From a virus, in the UHGV virus genome UHGV-0208736: a DNA stretch of 31,562 nt; one strand, given 5' to 3'. The position numbers were made by a program, and so were the translations under genes. The notes beneath the pieces are model-generated. The model saw nothing but the letters and a program-made list of their open reading frames with translations, had not been told where the DNA came from and did no database searches. Positions within the stretch are counted from its first letter, which is position 1. Every line of letters begins with the position of its first letter. Shown here piece by piece: positions 20,665-27,630 of this stretch.

Positions 20665-21077
20665 TGGGATACTTTGAGGACTTAACAAAAGCGTTTGATG
20701 TGCCGCTGGTAGCCTTCGGAACCACCAACGGCATCAGGGTTGCGCTTGAAAACATCGACGCGCCGACGTCGACCGATACCCCGTATCTGGCAAGTTACAT
20801 GCTACTTGCGGATACGGAACAGGCTGACTTGTTCTTCACGGAACAACGTGCAGGTGTCTATCAGGTCGACATTAACTACGCATCGGTGAAAGGTAGCGCG
20901 CCGATCAATAAAATGGCAGACTTACTTAACACGGCGTTTAAAGCGGGTAAGTCATTTTCACGTAATGACATCTGTGCCGAGGTTCAATCGGTTAGCCTGG
21001 GGCCGCTGATTGTAGAAAACGGATGGGCCAAAAGACCATTGTCAATTAACTTTATTGCATTCACCAAGAGGCTGTGA
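20661..21077 (+). CDS. probable tail terminator / tail completion protein
   Basis: 138 aa; position immediately upstream of major tail gene; overlapping start/stop. Confidence 0.35.
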   Translation: MMGYFEDLTKAFDVPLVAFGTTNGIRVALENIDAPTSTDTPYLASYMLLADTEQADLFFTEQRAGVYQVDINYASVKGSAPINKMADLLNTAFKAGKSFSRNDICAEVQSVSLGPLIVENGWAKRPLSINFIAFTKRL

Positions 21078-21079
21078 AT

Positions 21080-22246
21080 ATGGCTACAACTCCTTTTAAG
21101 GGCGCGAATACCGCGCAATTCTATGTGGCGGAAACTACCCCGGGCGTAGCACCGGCTAACCCGGTATGGTCGCCGTTGCGTAACACTGGCGGTGTTCCTG
21201 CGGTAACCCGCGATGCGCTAACTTCCAACGAACTGGACGGCAGCCGTGAAACTACATCCATCCGAACCGGTAACAAGCAGGTTAGCGGGGAGTATGCCAT
21301 CGAGCTTAGCTCACGTAGCCAGGATGATTTCCTCGCGGGCGCGATGACTTCTACGTGGCAGGCTGGGGTAGAGATTACGGGTGCTGAAATTACGGTTGCC
21401 CCAGCAGGTAAAACATTTACCCGCGCTGCCGGTAGCTTCATTACTGACGGTGTAGAAGTTGGCGACCTGATTGCGTTCACCGACTTAACTGGCGACAACG
21501 CAAAACCGTTTATCGTGACCGAGGTTTCTGCTCTTGTAGTTACGGGTGCTGGCATTCAGCACACGCTGACAGCAGAGACTGTAACCACCGACGCTAAAAC
21601 CGGTGACAAACTGGAAACCGGTAACGCATGTAAGACGTTCTCCATCCTGACGTGGTTCAAAGGTCAGTGCGGCAACCCGGACGCGTACATGCTGACCAAA
21701 GGTGTCGAAATCTCTGGCTTCACCATAGAGCAAGCGGTCAACGCGATGGTTACGGGTAGCTTCCCGTTCATCGGCTTGAGCCAGGAGATTCTTTCTGCAC
21801 CGCCAGCGGGTTCTGACTTCTCGCAAGTAACCTTCACCGATGAGCCGTTCTCGTCTGTAGATGTGTCTGTGTTCGACGGTTCTACGCCGTTACGTTGCGA
21901 CACGCTTACCATCACCAACGACAACGGCGCATCCGCGCAGTTTGAACTCGGCAACAGTAGCGTGGCGTTCGTGGAACGTGGTCGCGCGGCTAACACCTTC
22001 TCCATCTCAGGCAAGCTGTACGACATGGCGATGATTCAGAAGTTTATCAACGAGCAGCAGGTAGAGATTAACTCTATTCTGGCGGGGGTAAACGGTGCTA
22101 TGTCTTTCAGTTTGAAACGTGCGGAGCTCACGGCGGTTACGCCAGAGATTGGCGGACCGGAGTCAATCACTCAAAGCATAGAAGGACAGTCCACAGGTAA
22201 CCAGTACCAGTCGTCTATTGTTATTCAGCGCATCACCTACGCATAA
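21080..22246 (+). CDS. major tail (tube) protein
   Basis: 388 aa from ATG 21080 (SD AAGAGG 8 nt upstream); followed by strong terminator; precedes chaperone and tape-measure genes. Confidence 0.5.
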   Translation: MATTPFKGANTAQFYVAETTPGVAPANPVWSPLRNTGGVPAVTRDALTSNELDGSRETTSIRTGNKQVSGEYAIELSSRSQDDFLAGAMTSTWQAGVEITGAEITVAPAGKTFTRAAGSFITDGVEVGDLIAFTDLTGDNAKPFIVTEVSALVVTGAGIQHTLTAETVTTDAKTGDKLETGNACKTFSILTWFKGQCGNPDAYMLTKGVEISGFTIEQAVNAMVTGSFPFIGLSQEILSAPPAGSDFSQVTFTDEPFSSVDVSVFDGSTPLRCDTLTITNDNGASAQFELGNSSVAFVERGRAANTFSISGKLYDMAMIQKFINEQQVEINSILAGVNGAMSFSLKRAELTAVTPEIGGPESITQSIEGQSTGNQYQSSIVIQRITYA

Positions 22247-22252
22247 AACTAA

Positions 22253-22276
22253 GGCCCCTTTCGGGGCCTTTTTCTT
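22253..22276. terminator. bidirectional rho-independent terminator between major tail gene and the minus-strand accessory island
   Basis: GGCCCC-TTTC-GGGGCC followed by TTTTTCTT (plus); on minus strand the same hairpin is followed by UUAGUUUUAU. Confidence 0.6.
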
Positions 22277-22505
22277 ACTCATCAATATTACTCCTGTACT
22301 CCCGTAACTTCTCCAGACTTTCAATTGCTTCTGCTAAGTCGGTTCCGGTGTCCTTGTGTCCCCGCAAGCCCATGCACAATAGCTTCTTTAATGCGTGCTG
22401 TAATGCTGGGTCTCGGATATCGAAGGCACGGAGCACATCATAAACGTCTACAGTCATGGTGCTGCCGTGAGTATTTGTCATTGTGCGGTTGTATTTTGAA
22501 GTCAT
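22275..22505 (-). CDS. hypothetical protein (76 aa), last gene of accessory island
   Basis: ORF; start codon choice uncertain (Met1, Met9 or Met17), none with a strong SD. Confidence 0.4.
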   Translation of the reverse strand: MTSKYNRTMTNTHGSTMTVDVYDVLRAFDIRDPALQHALKKLLCMGLRGHKDTGTDLAEAIESLEKLREYRSNIDE

Positions 22506-22514
22506 CTCTAAGCC

Positions 22515-23015
22515 CTATTTATAACCGTTGTTGAATGTTGTCAGCCCGTGGTTTATGTGGAATTTATTGGCTACGGACATGTAAATTCTTTCCGCAAAAG
22601 CGTCCTCTATTCTGTCAAATGTTTTACTAATCTGCTTGCCATTGACAACGGCATACGCTCTCCACTTAGTTTTTCCTTTCCGCGCCACGCCAGTAACTCC
22701 AGAGGTATTATCTTTGCGCCTTTTCACGTTAACCATGTTGTCCCTTCTTGATTTGCAGGACAGGTTTTCAATTCTGTCATCACATGTATCATGGTTAGTG
22801 TGGTCTATGACAAATCCTTTCGGAATCTTACCTGAGAACATCTCATACACCACCCTCGACCTTTTAAACTTACGGTTGCCAAACATGACGTACCAATAGC
22901 CGTTTTTACACAAACTCCCAGCCACATCACCTACATTCACATCGTTACGGCGACACGATTTTACTTTCCAGTATAGGACGCCGTTTTTGTAGCTAAAAAC
23001 TTCGCTCCAGTCCAT
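22515..23015 (-). CDS. HNH homing endonuclease with AP2-type domain (third copy)
   Basis: HNH core GFVIDHTNHDTCDDRIENLSCKSRRDN; AP2-like GVTGVARKGKTKWRAYAVVNGKQISKTFDRIEDAFAERIY. Confidence 0.75.
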   Translation of the reverse strand: MDWSEVFSYKNGVLYWKVKSCRRNDVNVGDVAGSLCKNGYWYVMFGNRKFKRSRVVYEMFSGKIPKGFVIDHTNHDTCDDRIENLSCKSRRDNMVNVKRRKDNTSGVTGVARKGKTKWRAYAVVNGKQISKTFDRIEDAFAERIYMSVANKFHINHGLTTFNNGYK

Positions 23016-23030
23016 CCTTTCACCTGTATT

Positions 23031-24185
23031 TTAGTATGTTGATTTGGGGTTCATATCTCGCAGCATTTCAACAGGTATACTTATACGGGACACCTCGCCG
23101 TATCGTTTATGGTATGTAATCACATTTGCGCTCCTGCCGGAATAATAGCCGCCTTTACTAGAATACTCATCTTTAGCCGCTAATGTCTGGTGTTGCTCAA
23201 CAATTAGAAGATTAGTCTCTTTAACCGCCCTGTGATGAAGGTGGCCCGTATGGACATATGTGAACTTACACTGCCCGTACATCTCACGATACTTACCAAT
23301 TATAGACTGCTCTACCCTAGTAAAGTTAGAGCAATGCCCGTGGTGCGCCGAAATCATACAATCCCCGAACTTGTACGCATAATACGGCGATACCTCCCGG
23401 TTAACCTCAACACGAGGCTCGTTTGTGTACACCTCATAGAACATCTCTCTGAGCCACAGAGAAGAACTAAGGTCGTGGTTTCCCTCGCAAATAAGAAGTT
23501 TAACCTTCTTGTGTTTTCGCAGGCACAGCGAGACCGCCAGCTTGATAACCTTAACGGCTGTACGTATCATTTTAAACAGGCGACTATCCGCTGAAAGAAT
23601 ATGGCCGCTCATAGGGGTCATTGCCTTCATGCCATCGTAGTGCATCTGGTCCCCTAAGAAGTTAATGATACACTCCCCGCTCTGCGGACTCATACAAACC
23701 GCACTGTTGAACCAGTCAACTGCGAGAGATTCCGCAATTGTGGTGTCGTAATCATCTCCGCCTTCTTCTTGACACGCCAGCATACCGATGTGATGGTCCG
23801 TTATTGTGTAAAGATTTAATAAGTCGTCATCTGTGTCATTTTTAAGCAAAGTGGCCGGTTTATACTTAGGTAAATCTTTTTTCATCTCGTCCACAACGGC
23901 TTTCATCAATTCGACCTGACGTTCAGCGTCGGTGTCAGTCTTAACCCATTGCAGCTTAGTGTTGCCGAACTCGTCCACAAGTGACGACGTCCCTTTAATC
24001 TTGTATCCATCTGGCACAAGGTGACTAACGTCTCGCCCGTGACCTACGCCTTTCTTTGCCAGCTTCGCCTTACGGATACGAATAACGCGGTCTGAGATGC
24101 CGTATTTACGGGCTATATCGATATTCTTCATCCCGGCATTCAATTCTTCCTGTAACTGCTCATCGGTTATTTTCTTCTGGGCCAT
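23031..24185 (-). CDS. HTH-fused calcineurin-like metallophosphoesterase (Mre11/SbcD- or class III phosphodiesterase-like motif set)
   Basis: 384 aa; N-terminal HTH IDIARKYGISDRVIRIRKAKL; complete phosphoesterase motif series TDHH (DxH), FLGDQMHYDG (GD), ICEGNHD (GNHD), SAHHGH, HTGHLHH (GHxH); SD GAGGA. Confidence 0.65.
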   Translation of the reverse strand: MAQKKITDEQLQEELNAGMKNIDIARKYGISDRVIRIRKAKLAKKGVGHGRDVSHLVPDGYKIKGTSSLVDEFGNTKLQWVKTDTDAERQVELMKAVVDEMKKDLPKYKPATLLKNDTDDDLLNLYTITDHHIGMLACQEEGGDDYDTTIAESLAVDWFNSAVCMSPQSGECIINFLGDQMHYDGMKAMTPMSGHILSADSRLFKMIRTAVKVIKLAVSLCLRKHKKVKLLICEGNHDLSSSLWLREMFYEVYTNEPRVEVNREVSPYYAYKFGDCMISAHHGHCSNFTRVEQSIIGKYREMYGQCKFTYVHTGHLHHRAVKETNLLIVEQHQTLAAKDEYSSKGGYYSGRSANVITYHKRYGEVSRISIPVEMLRDMNPKSTY

Positions 24186-24223
24186 GCTTGCGTCCTCGTG
24201 TTTAGGATTTGTCCTATACTAGC

Positions 24224-24415
24224 TCACTTCTCTTTAACGTTCGAGTTGCAAGCCCAGATTAAAATAAATACCCACGGCAGCAGAACCCAGCCAAGAAACA
24301 GATTAGCAGTGAATATCGCTAATTTCGCTTTATGGTCACGGAAGTATGCAACCAGGAAAGGCGCGAAATAAGCGAGCAGTGCAAACAGAATTAAGGAAAC
24401 TGGTAAACTGGACAT
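24224..24415 (-). CDS. superinfection-immunity-like small membrane protein (63 aa from ATG 24415)
   Basis: MSSLPVSLILFALLAYFAPFLVAYFRDHKAKLAIFTANLFLGWVLLPWVFILIWAC; two TM segments around a basic loop and an NLFLGW motif resembling the Imm/superinfection-immunity family (from memory); SD AAGGGG upstream of Met29 of the track ORF. Confidence 0.55.
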   Translation of the reverse strand: MSSLPVSLILFALLAYFAPFLVAYFRDHKAKLAIFTANLFLGWVLLPWVFILIWACNSNVKEK

Positions 24416-24432
24416 TTTAAACCCCTTCATTG

Positions 24433-24489
24433 TTGGTGTAAGTGAATAGTACCCTATTATATTGGGGTGCGCAAGTAATGTGATAGAAT
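24433..24489. promoter_or_regulatory. divergent promoter region: plus-strand TTGGTG-N16-TATTAT and TTGGGG-N16-TAGAAT; minus-strand TATAAT (plus 24456-24461) for the accessory island
   Basis: Seen directly; located in the 167-bp gap between the island and the tail chaperone gene; the minus -35 (ATCACA) is weak. Confidence 0.35.
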
Positions 24490-24582
24490 AATTTTGCACC
24501 TAGTGTCGCACACGAAAAGCGGGTGGTTCCCGTCTGGTGCATTTACCGTTAACCTGTAACCTCTTAACCAAAGGATTAAAGA

Positions 24583-24999
24583 ATGAAACTTTCAGATTTT
24601 TATTTCGAAGAGAAAGCACTGGTAGGCAAGAAGATGCCGATTCTGCTTCCAAACGGCGAAGACTCAGGGGAGTGGCTTAACGTTGTAAACCCTGATGCGG
24701 ATGTCGCCGTTAAAGCGGGGCGCGCTTTCATTATTGCGTACCGTCGCGGACTGGCGCGTTTCGAAGAACTGGAAAAAGCCGCCAAAGATTCCGGCGACTA
24801 TACTGAATATAACCTGGCGGTCAACGAACTGGCGGAAGACCTCAACCGGCAACTTGCAGCAGAAGTCGTAAACGGCTGGAGCTTTGATGAGCCTTTCTCT
24901 AAGGAAGCGTTTAACAAATTGCTGGACCAGTTCAAGGCCTTAGGCACACAGGTAGCAGCGTTCCATAACGCCGAGCGCAAAGCATTACAGGAAAAGTAG
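24583..24999 (+). CDS. tail assembly chaperone (gpG-like)
   Basis: 138 aa acidic protein directly upstream of tape measure gene; SD AAGGA; ends at slippery GGAAAAG-TAG. Confidence 0.55.
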   Translation: MKLSDFYFEEKALVGKKMPILLPNGEDSGEWLNVVNPDADVAVKAGRAFIIAYRRGLARFEELEKAAKDSGDYTEYNLAVNELAEDLNRQLAAEVVNGWSFDEPFSKEAFNKLLDQFKALGTQVAAFHNAERKALQEK

Positions 25000-25364
25000 A
25001 CGCGCTGTACAGGTTCGCCACCTACGAGTTTGTGGATAAGCATAAAATCAGAGAGTTTGATTCTATAGCTGACGGGCACGAACAGGCGCTTATCGCGATG
25101 GGTGTAATCGATAAGAAAAAACGTGCAGCGCGACGGGGTGGGCCAGAATGCCCGCCCCTTTTTATATCCACCTTTGAAACGTACTGTGACATTAAGTTTA
25201 CGCGACACGTGCGCGAGGACGCTGTAGTATTGTTTGCAAGAGAATCCGTTACGTGGCAAGACCTGAAAGCCTATCTCGATGTTACGCAAAAACAGCTTAG
25301 CCTGTTCGAGATAGACATTATCATGGGCTTAGAAGCAATCTTTGAAGGTAGAAATCATGGCTGA
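24969..25364 (+). CDS. tail assembly chaperone frameshift extension (gpT-like portion of a G-T fusion), -1 frame
   Basis: The -1 frame is open from 24969 to 25364, overlapping the last 10 codons of the G gene; no good in-frame ATG/SD of its own (the track start is GTG at 25032). Confidence 0.45.
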   Translation, partial: RRAQSITGKVDALYRFATYEFVDKHKIREFDSIADGHEQALIAMGVIDKKKRAARRGGPECPPLFISTFETYCDIKFTRHVREDAVVLFARESVTWQDLKAYLDVTQKQLSLFEIDIIMGLEAIFEGRNHG

Positions 25365-27630
25365 TACCGCTAGCTTGATAGTACGAGTATCATCGACCGG
25401 CGTCGATAAAACCACATCACAACTGAACGGGCTTACCAAAGCCGCTGGCGCTGCCGCTGCTGCCGTTGTCAGTCTGGAAACCGCTAAGCAGGTGTTCAGC
25501 GCGCTGGTGGACTCCCAGCGCAACTTCGATAAGCTGAACTCCGGCCTCATCACGATGACCGGGAGCGCAGAGAACGCGGCTAAAGCTTTCAGCGTCCTGC
25601 AACAGTTCGCAAAAGAAACACCATACGGACTTAATCAGGCGGTGGAAGGCTTTACTAAGCTGGTGGCTCTTGGTCTGAACCCCAGCAAAGAGGCATTAAT
25701 CTCCTACGGCAACACCGCGGCCGCCATGGGTAAAGACCTTAATCAGATGATTGAGGCAGTTGCCGACGCCAGTACCTTTGAGTTTGAGCGACTAAAAGAG
25801 TTTGGCATCAAGTCGTCGCAACAGGCGGATACAGTGTCGTTCACGTTCCGCGGCGTTACCACCACGGTTAAAAAGAACTCCGAAGAGATTCAGAAATACC
25901 TCCTGAACATCGGTAACACTGATTTCGCCGGGGCGATGGAGACGCGCTCGAAGACATTAGACGGTCAGTTATCCAGCCTCGCCGACTCCTTCGATGGCCT
26001 TGTTCTCGCCGTAGCGCAGTCTGGTTTTGGTGACGCCGTAGGTGAGCAAGCGGCCACAGCGGAAGACGCTATCACGGCGCTTACCGACGCCATCGCGTCT
26101 AATGAGATAGCCGCCACGCTCCAGGATTGGGTAACGTTGTTCAATGAGTCATTCAAGTTTATTTCCGACGCCTTGAATGACCTGGCATTCGATACCGAGG
26201 ACAAATCCGTTGATATGTCTGACTCGCTGGGGACTATACCGGATGCCATCCGTGAGTGGCTGCCGGACATCCAGCAGACATTTCACGAGGTTATTGCGTG
26301 GTTCCAGCGCATTGACGATTACGCCGTAGCGCTTGGCCAGACCCTCGCCGATGTGTTTGACCCGAGCAAAACGGCAGCGCTCACATTTAAAAAACTGACT
26401 GCAGAGGCTGATGCCGCATACGACGCCAGCATAAAACGCGCAGAGGCAGAATCACAGGCCATTACCAACAGGTCTAAGCAGCGTAAGAAAGAAATTGAGG
26501 AACAGCGCAAGCAGTATGACGAGCGCAAGAAGCAAGAAATTGACTTAGCCAGCCTTGTTAATAAAAAGGGCGGAACTGGTGGGGCGGGGACAACCGACGA
26601 TAAAGCAGCAAAAGCCGCCGCCAAGAAAGCAGAGCAATTGCGTAATCAGGCGCAAGACTACCTCGACACTTTGGCCCGTCAGAACAACGACGAGTTAAAG
26701 GCTATTGACGCGCAGGAACAGCAGAAACTGGCTAAAGCAAAAGAGTTCTACAGCCAGGGCGCGCTGTCGCTGAAAGAATACGAGCAAGCAAAAACGGCTA
26801 TCGTCCTTGAAGCTGGACAAAAACGACAAGATGAACTGGATAAACGCCAGAAAGAAGCTCAGGAAAAGCAGCAGAAAGGCGACGACTTCATGGCTCAGAT
26901 TATGGGCCAGAACGCCACTGAGCTTGAGCTTCTCGACATCCAGGAACAGCAGAAACTGGCGGTCGCCGATAAATACCGCGAACAGGGGCTGATTAACGAG
27001 GAACAGTATCAGGCGGCACTTAACGCTATCAACGAGCAATACGCAACCAAGCGTGCCGACGCAACGGCAACCGCCTTTGGTAATATGGCCTCAAACATCG
27101 GGTCCGCGTTGGGTGAGGCTTCTGGTGCGTATAAGGCATTCGCTATTGTGCAAGCCACTATCGCCACGTACACCGCAGCTATTGAAGCATATAAGTCAAC
27201 GGCCGCTATCCCTGTAGTTGGCCCGTTCCTGGCCCCCGTAGCCGCTGCCGCTGCCGTTGGGGCTGGGATGGCGCAGATTTCCGCTATCAGGTCTGCGCGT
27301 GAACAGGGCGGCCAGCTATCAGCGGGGCAGGCTTCCACCATCGCTGAACGTGGTAAACCAGAAGTTATCATGCCCGCTAGCGCATCACGTGTACGCACAG
27401 CACAGCAAATGAAAGAAATTATGGGGCAAAACGGGTCTTCTTCCGGACCGTCTAATGTTACCATCGTAAACAACACGAGTTCTCAAATCGGCAACGTATC
27501 CACTGAGCAAGACGATGAGGGGCGTCTTCGTATCATCATCGAAGAGCAAGTTGCCGCATCTTTGCAGAACAGCAACAGTAAGATTAGCAAGGCCCGCAAG
27601 GCCACAAGAAACGCGCCGGGGTTCAAGTAA
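25357..27630 (+). CDS. tail tape measure protein
   Basis: 757 aa from ATG 25357; long Ala/Gln/Lys/Glu-rich coiled-coil; hydrophobic Gly/Ala-rich segment (AIPVVGPFLAPVAAAAAVGAGMAQ); internal in-frame repeats; follows G/GT. Confidence 0.8.
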   Translation: MADTASLIVRVSSTGVDKTTSQLNGLTKAAGAAAAAVVSLETAKQVFSALVDSQRNFDKLNSGLITMTGSAENAAKAFSVLQQFAKETPYGLNQAVEGFTKLVALGLNPSKEALISYGNTAAAMGKDLNQMIEAVADASTFEFERLKEFGIKSSQQADTVSFTFRGVTTTVKKNSEEIQKYLLNIGNTDFAGAMETRSKTLDGQLSSLADSFDGLVLAVAQSGFGDAVGEQAATAEDAITALTDAIASNEIAATLQDWVTLFNESFKFISDALNDLAFDTEDKSVDMSDSLGTIPDAIREWLPDIQQTFHEVIAWFQRIDDYAVALGQTLADVFDPSKTAALTFKKLTAEADAAYDASIKRAEAESQAITNRSKQRKKEIEEQRKQYDERKKQEIDLASLVNKKGGTGGAGTTDDKAAKAAAKKAEQLRNQAQDYLDTLARQNNDELKAIDAQEQQKLAKAKEFYSQGALSLKEYEQAKTAIVLEAGQKRQDELDKRQKEAQEKQQKGDDFMAQIMGQNATELELLDIQEQQKLAVADKYREQGLINEEQYQAALNAINEQYATKRADATATAFGNMASNIGSALGEASGAYKAFAIVQATIATYTAAIEAYKSTAAIPVVGPFLAPVAAAAAVGAGMAQISAIRSAREQGGQLSAGQASTIAERGKPEVIMPASASRVRTAQQMKEIMGQNGSSSGPSNVTIVNNTSSQIGNVSTEQDDEGRLRIIIEEQVAASLQNSNSKISKARKATRNAPGFK

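What the first reader, a model, noticed from the sequence alone, without database searches (positions are those of the whole stretch)
24969..25364. Putative programmed -1 frameshift producing a G-T tail chaperone fusion at GGAAAAG-TAG
The -1 frame is open from 24969 and runs 122 codons beyond the chaperone stop into the tape measure start. The overlap window contains G-GAA-AAG immediately before the TAG stop, where tRNA-Lys can re-pair AAG to AAA. This matches the conserved G/GT strategy of tailed phages, but the heptamer is not a canonical X-XXY-YYZ site, so the mechanism may be stop-codon-stimulated slippage.
Basis: partly seen in the sequence, partly recalled or inferred. Interest (0 to 1): 0.4.

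Follow-up and report, generated by a model that had tools for sequence, protein, structure and literature searches.

The report
Tail chaperone G-T frameshift site
This is the expected ribosomal -1 frameshift that fuses two tail-assembly chaperone reading frames of a K1G-like E. coli phage; close relatives already annotate it, but comparison shows a fixed A-AAG-stop slip site followed by a conserved long-range RNA helix.

Summary
The chaperone ORF (24583-24999) ends ...CAG GAA AAG TAG, and the -1 frame is open from 24969 to 25361, 122 codons past the slip point. It overlaps the tape measure ATG at 25357.

The window is a Kagunavirus (about 96% identical to phage K1G). RefSeq K1G, fFiEco02, Shelanagig and Shemara already annotate the joined frameshift product, so the frameshift is a known, though untested, feature.

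Comparison across the subfamily adds detail:
- A_AAG followed directly by TAG or TAA is invariant down to 43% protein identity. The preceding codon encodes five different amino acids but always ends in A.
- In some relatives the -1 frame opens only 7 nt before the stop, which pins the shift to the last two codons.
- The T frame has no conserved start codon.
- A 10-bp helix (25001-25010 with 25123-25132) begins 4-5 nt after the slip site. It shows compensatory changes, and another clade uses a different 3' arm near +200.

Best reading: tRNA-Lys slips from AAG to AAA, helped by the helix and possibly by the adjacent stop. Nothing has been tested experimentally.

The parts
24583..24999 (+). G-like tail assembly chaperone ORF (138 aa, stop TAG 24997-24999)
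   Evidence: ORF list and translation. Pfam Phage_TAC_4 at 8e-6; phrog_15027 positions 1-138 at 2e-71.
24990..24996 (+). Slip site G_GAA_AAG; the conserved core is the tetramer A_AAG at 24993-24996
   Evidence: A_AAG is invariant in all relatives with 43-99% G identity. The preceding codon is GAA, GGA, GCA, GTA or TCA and always ends in A. AAG is never AAA.
24997..24999 (+). 0-frame stop TAG directly 3' of the slip site, followed by A at 25000
   Evidence: The stop sits at this exact position in every relative. Among 24 lineages it is TAG 17, TAA 7 and TGA 0. The next base is always A or C.
25001..25010 (+). 5' arm of the long-range helix (CGCGCUGUAC); the conserved core starts at 25002
   Evidence: RNAduplex -20 kcal/mol. 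Helix probability 0.99. Present in the MFE and centroid folds, z = -2.49. Covariation with the 3' arm.
25123..25132 (+). 3' arm of the long-range helix (GUGCAGCGCG), lying in the variable linker of T
   Evidence: CAGCGC is invariant in the window-type lineages, although the encoded residues differ (RAAR, RTAQ, RTAP, RPAQ, EAAQ). It changes to CAACGC exactly where the 5' arm is GCGUUG.
24996..25364 (+). T segment read in the -1 frame after the shift (122 codons plus TGA)
   Evidence: Pfam Phage_TAC_18 at 1e-18; phrog_15027 positions 134-259. tblastn matches in 494 phage records start at residue 1. Synonymous variation with conserved residues from codon 143 onward.
25357..27630 (+). Tape measure protein gene; its ATG overlaps the T stop
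   Evidence: ORF list; phrog_1538 at 1e-194.

Best explanation
A minority of ribosomes translating the chaperone gene slip back one base on A_AAG (24993-24996) at the last sense codon. The single E. coli tRNA-Lys re-pairs from AAG to AAA. tRNA-Glu on GAA can re-pair to GGA with one G-U in the middle position. These ribosomes then read GTA GAC GCG... and make a 260-aa G-T fusion ending at 25364. Unshifted ribosomes stop at TAG 24997 and make the 138-aa G protein.

Two elements probably raise the slip rate. The first is a 10-bp helix that starts 4-5 nt after the slip site and closes a 112-nt domain (25001-25010 with 25123-25132). This is the same layout as the IS3 A_AAG-plus-structure signal. 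The second is the adjacent stop in a weak context (TAG-A).

Shown: the sequence anatomy, its conservation and the covariation. Inferred: that shifting occurs, its rate, and the roles of the helix and the stop.
For: - Homology: both halves are tail assembly chaperone families, and one PHROG profile spans the junction.
- Slip site: the invariant pattern is NNA_AAG_TAR in every relative of 43-99% G identity. These were retrieved with peptide patterns far from the site, and held-out GenBank phages agree.
- Codon use: among 40 invariant amino-acid columns in 24 lineages, only K138 AAG, V139 GTA, A141 GCG and L142 CTG use a single codon. This is the synonymous-conservation peak of the whole gene.
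- Position: L024, L025, L058 and L059 open the -1 frame only 7 nt before the stop.
- No independent start: four lineages have no ATG, GTG or TTG in the first 50 T codons. GTG 25032 is not conserved.
- Helix: 86-94% of cells paired against 5-57% when the partner is slid. C-G changes to U-A (11 versus 8 sequences, no mismatch), and U-A/U-G changes to C-G. None of 500 shuffles reach the observed values. The arm just after the stop has the strongest downstream partner of 121 arms scanned.
- Literature: A_AAG is the most shift-prone tetramer in E. coli, reaching 5.6% with the IS3 pseudoknot 5 nt downstream (PMC4066793).
- Annotation: several records already annotate the joined product.
Against: - There is no experimental evidence for the fusion in this phage group in anything I could read.
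- The heptamer is not canonical, and one genome announcement for a related phage states that there is no canonical slippery sequence (PMC6776780).
- Without a stimulator, A_AAG is barely above background in E. coli.
- No in-frame G-T fusion exists among 1.84 billion representative proteins, so there is no independent proof that the fused form is the functional one.
- The helix is nearly invariant among close relatives of the window, so its support comes from other clades.
- A YTG codon 8 nt after the first base of the stop (5 nt past its last base) is always present and could serve as a weak start.
Confidence: 0.8

Rival explanations
1. T is made as a separate 119-aa protein. Initiation, or reinitiation after termination at TAG, would use CTG 25005, 8 nt after the first base of the stop. 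AGGA at 24989-24992 would act as a weak Shine-Dalgarno sequence.
For: A YTG codon at this position is present in every relative: CTG in most, TTG in Jerseyvirus proper. Several GenBank records annotate T from exactly this codon, and Snoke marks AGGA as its RBS.
Against: - CTG is a very poor start codon (my own knowledge). If start function were selected, the better start TTG should dominate, yet most lineages keep CTG.
- The SD-like AGGA is absent in lineages with CGCAAAG, AGCAAAG or GTCAAAG.
- The codon lies inside the 5' arm of the helix, and the CTG/TTG change is matched by a compensatory change in the 3' arm. The helix therefore explains its conservation.
- This model does not explain why AAG is never AAA, or why the preceding codon always ends in A.
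Confidence: 0.08
2. T is an ordinary independent gene starting at GTG 25032 or ATG 25099.
For: the ORF listing reports a 110-aa ORF from GTG 25032. Gene callers in public data often start T homologues at the internal Met; hits of 82-94 aa begin at query residue 35.
Against: - GTG 25032 is GTC or GTT in close relatives.
- Four lineages have no canonical start in the first 50 codons, and there is no SD.
- The 12 codons upstream of 25032 evolve as coding sequence and are conserved at 40-55% identity.
Confidence: 0.03
3. The frameshift happens, but the long-range helix is not its stimulator. Slippage would be driven by the slow stop alone, and the helix would serve something else, such as mRNA stability, blocking internal initiation, or coupling to tape measure translation.
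For: - The stop is fixed directly next to A_AAG in all relatives. It is enriched for TAG and always followed by A or C.
- The lambda G-T shift, from my own knowledge, needs no strong structure.
- With the stop in the A site, the first helix pairs would already be inside the ribosome.
Against: - The helix starts 4-5 nt after the slip site in both clade types, even though the 3' arm sits at different places. That is the spacing used by the IS3 A_AAG signal.
- A_AAG alone is near background in E. coli.
Confidence: 0.3
4. The fusion arises from transcriptional slippage by RNA polymerase on the A run rather than from ribosomal slippage.
For: GGAAAAG contains four consecutive A residues.
Against: Many relatives have only three A residues (GCAAAG, GTAAAG, TCAAAG). 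From my own knowledge, productive slippage needs runs of about seven or more.
Confidence: 0.02

Closest known systems
Phage lambda gpG/gpGT and the conserved tail assembly chaperone frameshift of long-tailed phages (Levin 1993 and Xu 2004, as summarised in PMC5009743)
   Same: Two overlapping ORFs lie just upstream of the tape measure gene. A -1 shift occurs near the end of G on a site ending in A_AAG; lambda uses G_GGA_AAG. T has no start of its own, and a low-level fusion is expected.
   Different: The heptamer here is G_GAA_AAG, not X_XXY_YYZ. The stop codon directly abuts the slip site. A conserved long-range helix follows. The tube gene is separated from G by 2.3 kb of leftward genes.
IS3 / IS1222-type A_AAG tetramer (NNA_AAG hexamer) frameshift signals (PMC4066793; PMC5009743)
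   Same: The slip motif is A_AAG rather than a full heptamer. The 5' codon varies. A structure starts about 5 nt downstream. Both depend on the single E. coli tRNA-Lys.
   Different: IS3 uses a compact pseudoknot. Here one helix closes a 112-nt domain (about 178 nt in the other clade), and the 0-frame stop is part of the spacer.
Annotated frameshift products in the same subfamily: K1G ORF22A/22B, fFiEco02, Shelanagig and Shemara
   Same: These are orthologous genes. The slip region of K1G is identical to the window.
   Different: They are annotations only. Other records of the same subfamily annotate two separate genes, or state that no slippery sequence exists.

Membership tests
Tail assembly chaperone G/GT programmed -1 frameshift | Two overlapping ORFs between the tail tube gene and the tape measure gene, directly upstream of the latter | tested here: met
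   Tube gene 21074-22246 (Phage_tube_2), G 24583-24999, T to 25364, tape measure from 25357. A 2.3-kb leftward block lies between the tube gene and G.
Tail assembly chaperone G/GT programmed -1 frameshift | The downstream ORF is in the -1 frame and lacks its own conserved start and Shine-Dalgarno sequence | tested here: met
   Frame arithmetic. No conserved ATG, GTG or TTG; four lineages have none in 50 codons. Only a YTG at +8 is constant.
Tail assembly chaperone G/GT programmed -1 frameshift | Sequence membership in chaperone families | tested here: met
   Phage_TAC_4 (G), Phage_TAC_18 (T), and phrog_15027 spanning both.
Tail assembly chaperone G/GT programmed -1 frameshift | Both G and G-T proteins are produced at a fixed ratio and are needed for tail assembly | not testable with these tools
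   Needs protein detection and genetics.
Canonical X_XXY_YYZ slippery heptamer | Positions 1-3 identical and positions 4-6 identical in the 0-frame register | tested here: not met
   G_GAA_AAG has G,G,A in positions 1-3. One relative, an IMG/VR contig of the same length as Raoultella phage RP180, has the canonical G_GGA_AAG.
A_AAG tetramer / NNA_AAG hexamer -1 signals (IS3, IS1222) | In-frame A_AAG with a variable 5' codon that ends in A | tested here: met
   GAA, GGA, GCA, GTA or TCA followed by AAG in all relatives.
A_AAG tetramer / NNA_AAG hexamer -1 signals (IS3, IS1222) | Downstream RNA structure about 5-6 nt from the motif | tested here: met
   The helix starts at +4/+5. It has covariation and slid-partner controls, high predicted probability, and z = -2.49. 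Its stimulatory effect is not tested.
A_AAG tetramer / NNA_AAG hexamer -1 signals (IS3, IS1222) | Measured frameshifting that depends on the motif | not testable with these tools
   Needs a reporter assay.

The most novel reading that the evidence does not exclude
Guernseyvirinae chaperone genes may use a distinct composite -1 signal. It would consist of the minimal A_AAG tetramer, an obligatory adjacent RF1-readable stop in a weak context, and a helix closing a domain of more than 100 nt. The 3' arm of that helix has moved between two positions (about +125 and about +200) during evolution, while the 5' arm stayed fixed. This would be a natural example of a relocatable long-range frameshift stimulator in bacteria. 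A 2015 paper that I could not read (Anany et al., PMID 25663216) reportedly mentions a predicted secondary structure here, so part of this may already be published.
Probability: 0.45. Interest if true: 0.5.

Novelty: new member of a known kind. Interest (0 to 1): 0.33.

Why it matters
It settles an annotation conflict. Records of this phage subfamily variously show a joined frameshift product, two separate genes starting at CTG or TTG, or a note that no slippery sequence exists. The comparative data give a simple rule: NNA_AAG, then TAR, then a helix 5 nt downstream. That rule lets annotators place the join.

It also has a practical consequence for experiments. Any reporter test must include the 3' arm at 25123-25132, or it may underestimate the shift.

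For recoding research, it offers a natural, testable case of the weak A_AAG tetramer combined with a long-range helix and an adjacent stop.

Tried and rejected
- Local hairpin or pseudoknot search just after the slip site. Folds of 24990-25110 and 25000-25060 had positive z-scores. RNAalifold on -70..+20 and -10..+120 found nothing. These segments ended before the 3' arm, so the negative result was an artefact of truncation.
- Rfam: no family in the window or in 24900-25400.
- The search for homologous proteins with the fusion returned only 4 short hits and was uninformative.
- Search for natural in-frame G-T fusions among 1.84 billion representatives found none; T homologues are 52-124 aa stand-alone calls.
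- Anany et al. 2015 could not be read by PubMed id or DOI.
- My first python set was selected with a regular expression that required GCGCTGT, which hid variants. Sequences fetched afterwards showed GCGTTG with compensatory 3' changes, and I corrected the claim.
- Within the window alone, the inverted repeat is one of six of similar size in 500 nt, so it is not significant without the comparisons.

Full report
**What is in the window.** The chaperone ORF runs 24583-24999 (138 aa). It ends ...CAG GAA AAG followed by TAG at 24997-24999. In the -1 frame a TAA lies at 24966-24968. That frame is then open from 24969 to 25361, with TGA at 25362-25364. From GTA at 24996 this gives 122 codons. The tape measure ATG at 25357 overlaps the T stop.

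**Identity of the genes.** The first ORF matches Pfam Phage_TAC_4, and the -1 ORF matches Phage_TAC_18. A single PHROG profile of 259 positions (phrog_15027, tail assembly chaperone) matches the first ORF at positions 1-138 and the -1 ORF at positions 134-259. Upstream lies a tail tube gene (21074-22246). Downstream lie the tape measure gene and distal tail genes. Region 24400-25500 is about 96% identical to Escherichia phage K1G and other Kagunavirus genomes.

**State of knowledge.**
- RefSeq K1G annotates ORF22A (G) and ORF22B as a two-piece joined CDS. Its sequence at the site is identical to the window.
- Joined "frameshift product" features also exist in fFiEco02, Shelanagig and Shemara.
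- Other records annotate T as a separate gene starting 8 nt after the first base of the stop.
- The announcement of phage Shashou says there is no canonical slippery sequence (PMC6776780).
- The GenBank note of phage Snoke cites Anany et al. 2015 for a "predicted secondary structure here". I could not read that paper.

The frameshift is therefore already predicted for this group, but the records disagree. I found no experimental test in what I could search.

**Comparative test of the slip site.** I collected relatives from IMG/VR using peptide patterns that lie far from the site.
- Every locus with 43-99% identity in G has NNA_AAG directly followed by TAG or TAA, and a -1 extension of 119-122 codons.
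- The codon before AAG is GAA, GGA, GCA, GTA or TCA. That is five different amino acids, always ending in A.
- One contig, of the same length as Raoultella phage RP180, carries the canonical lambda-type G_GGA_AAG.
- In L024, L025, L058 and L059 the -1 frame has a TAA ending 8 nt before the stop. The shift can then only occur on C_GCA_AAG.
- Among 24 lineages below 88% nucleotide identity, 40 alignment columns have an invariant amino acid. Thirty-six of them use 2-6 codons. The only four with a single codon are K138 AAG, V139 GTA, A141 GCG and L142 CTG.
- This is the strongest peak of synonymous conservation in the whole G-T alignment. The next peak is at the tape measure start.

One caveat applies to the last two points. 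That python set was selected with a pattern requiring GCGCTGT. Later GenBank sequences show that L142 can be TTG. A_AAG, GTA and GCG stayed invariant in all of them.

More distant relatives (28-35% identity) instead carry canonical T_TTT_TTC or A_AAT_TTT heptamers 25-58 nt before the stop.

**No independent start for T.**
- GTG 25032 becomes GTC or GTT in close relatives.
- Four lineages have no ATG, GTG or TTG in the first 50 T codons, and two more have none before +140.
- tblastn matches in 494 phage records begin at the first residue after the junction, even at 40% identity.
- From codon 143 onward, the residues upstream of GTG 25032 are conserved while their codons vary. This stretch therefore behaves as coding sequence.
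- Only a YTG codon 8 nt after the first base of the stop is constant. The SD-like pairing upstream of it ranges from -0.4 to -4.8 kcal/mol.

**The long-range helix.** Short folds downstream found nothing, but they ended before +120. Searching for a complement of the conserved GCGCUGU gave a partner in nearly every lineage. It lies at about +125..+136 or at about +195..+209 relative to the stop.

In the window, CGCGCUGUAC (25001-25010) pairs with GUGCAGCGCG (25123-25132):
- The helix has 10 bp and a duplex energy of -20 kcal/mol.
- Its predicted probability is 0.99 when the RNA is folded from +3.
- It appears in both the MFE and centroid folds of 25000-25135, with z = -2.49.

For the +200 clades (38 sequences), 93.7% of cells pair, against 16-54% when the 3' arm is slid. 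Three pairs show changes on both sides, and none of 500 shuffles reach the observed values. For example, L054 has UUGAAAU opposite AUUUCAA, and L093 has UAC opposite GUA.

Close relatives of the window are almost invariant in the helix, so they are uninformative.

GenBank phages fetched afterwards gave a held-out test of the window-type helix.
- Jerseyvirus proper has GCGUUGUUUC opposite GAAACAACGC.
- Snoke-like phages have GCGUUGC opposite GCAACGC.
- Using the structure defined beforehand from the window, 86.3% of cells pair, against 20-56% when slid.
- Four pairs (18 cells) change on both sides. One pair is C-G in 11 sequences and U-A in 8, with no mismatch.
- The covariation score is 0.268, against at most 0.123 for the slid controls, and none of 500 shuffles reach it.

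The 3' arm lies in a linker whose amino acids differ widely (RAAR, RTAQ, RPAQ, EAAQ, ETTQ). The constraint is therefore on the RNA.

In a scan of 121 arms across the region, the arm just after the stop has the strongest downstream partner. Its mean is -18.7 kcal/mol, against -11.2 +/- 1.8 for all arms, and it ranks first in the window.

**Mechanism.**
- Established knowledge (PMC5009743): E. coli has one tRNA-Lys, and this makes AAG-to-AAA slippage easy.
- Established knowledge (PMC4066793): A_AAG is the most shift-prone tetramer in E. coli. It is near background alone and reaches 5.6% with the IS3 pseudoknot placed 5 nt downstream.
- Established knowledge: efficiency on NNA_AAG depends on the 5' codon.
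- The element here has the same layout: A_AAG, a 4-5 nt spacer that contains the stop, then a helix.
- The stop is always adjacent. It is TAG in 17 and TAA in 7 of 24 lineages, never TGA, and is always followed by A or C. The window's own genes use TAA 12, TGA 10 and TAG 6, and most often have T next.
- This suggests selection for slow termination, but the same bases also sit in a -1 codon and next to the helix. I treat the stop's role as inferred.

**Rivals.** Separate initiation or reinitiation at CTG 25005 cannot be excluded from sequence alone. However, it does not explain the A_AAG constraints. The codon also lies inside the helix arm, and its CTG/TTG change is compensated in the partner. 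Starts at GTG 25032 or ATG 25099 are contradicted by the comparative data. Transcriptional slippage is unlikely because many relatives have only three A residues. No natural in-frame G-T fusion was found, so that independent check is unavailable.

**Verdict.** The frameshift is an expected feature that is already annotated in this phage group. The fixed A_AAG-stop site and the covarying long-range helix with two alternative 3' arms are a modest addition. They need a reporter assay that includes 25123-25132, and a check against Anany et al. 2015.

Noticed in passing
window 22515-23015 (- strand): HNH endonuclease gene (Pfam HNH_3, phrog_99). Its best full-length matches, about 90%, are in Salmonella Jersey-like phages, whereas the neighbouring chaperone region is about 96% identical to K1G-like E. 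coli phages. This looks like a mobile homing endonuclease insertion.
   Followed up: partly
window 22275-24499 (- strand): A 2.3-kb block of leftward genes separates the tail tube gene from the chaperone gene: a small ORF, the HNH gene, a DNA repair exonuclease at 23031-24185, and an Imm-like superinfection immunity gene at 24224-24499. The simple promoter scan found sigma-70-like sites only on the - strand in 24414-24484.
   Followed up: partly
L016 / L048 (IMG/VR contig of 44,851 bp, the same length as Raoultella phage RP180), slip site: A single A-to-G change (E137G) turns G_GAA_AAG into the canonical lambda-type heptamer G_GGA_AAG. The stop and the helix arm are unchanged.
   Followed up: partly
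L098-L101 (IMG/VR, 28-35% identity in G): Distant homologues lack A_AAG-stop. They carry canonical T_TTT_TTC or A_AAT_TTT heptamers 25-58 nt before the G stop, with -1 extensions of 99-107 codons.
   Followed up: partly
L023-L028 (alignment A4, columns 133-138 and 213-219): This clade carries complements of the 5' arm at both candidate positions: CAGCGC near +122 and ACAGCGC at +202. It may be an intermediate in the relocation of the 3' arm.
   Followed up: no
window 24997-25000 and the same site in relatives: The stop after the slip site is never TGA, and the next base is never T or G, in 64 unique sequences. This is consistent with a weak termination context but is confounded by the overlapping -1 codon.
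   Followed up: partly
window 25266-25279 / 25306-25319 and 25079-25087 / 25300-25308: Further inverted repeats lie inside the T segment: one of 14 nt at 86% complementarity, and one perfect 9-nt repeat. I did not examine their conservation.
   Followed up: no
L108 (Salmonella phage PK1, PV360690.1), locus 718-1074: This record annotates a minus-strand hypothetical protein across the T segment instead of T. It is probably a mis-annotation.
   Followed up: no
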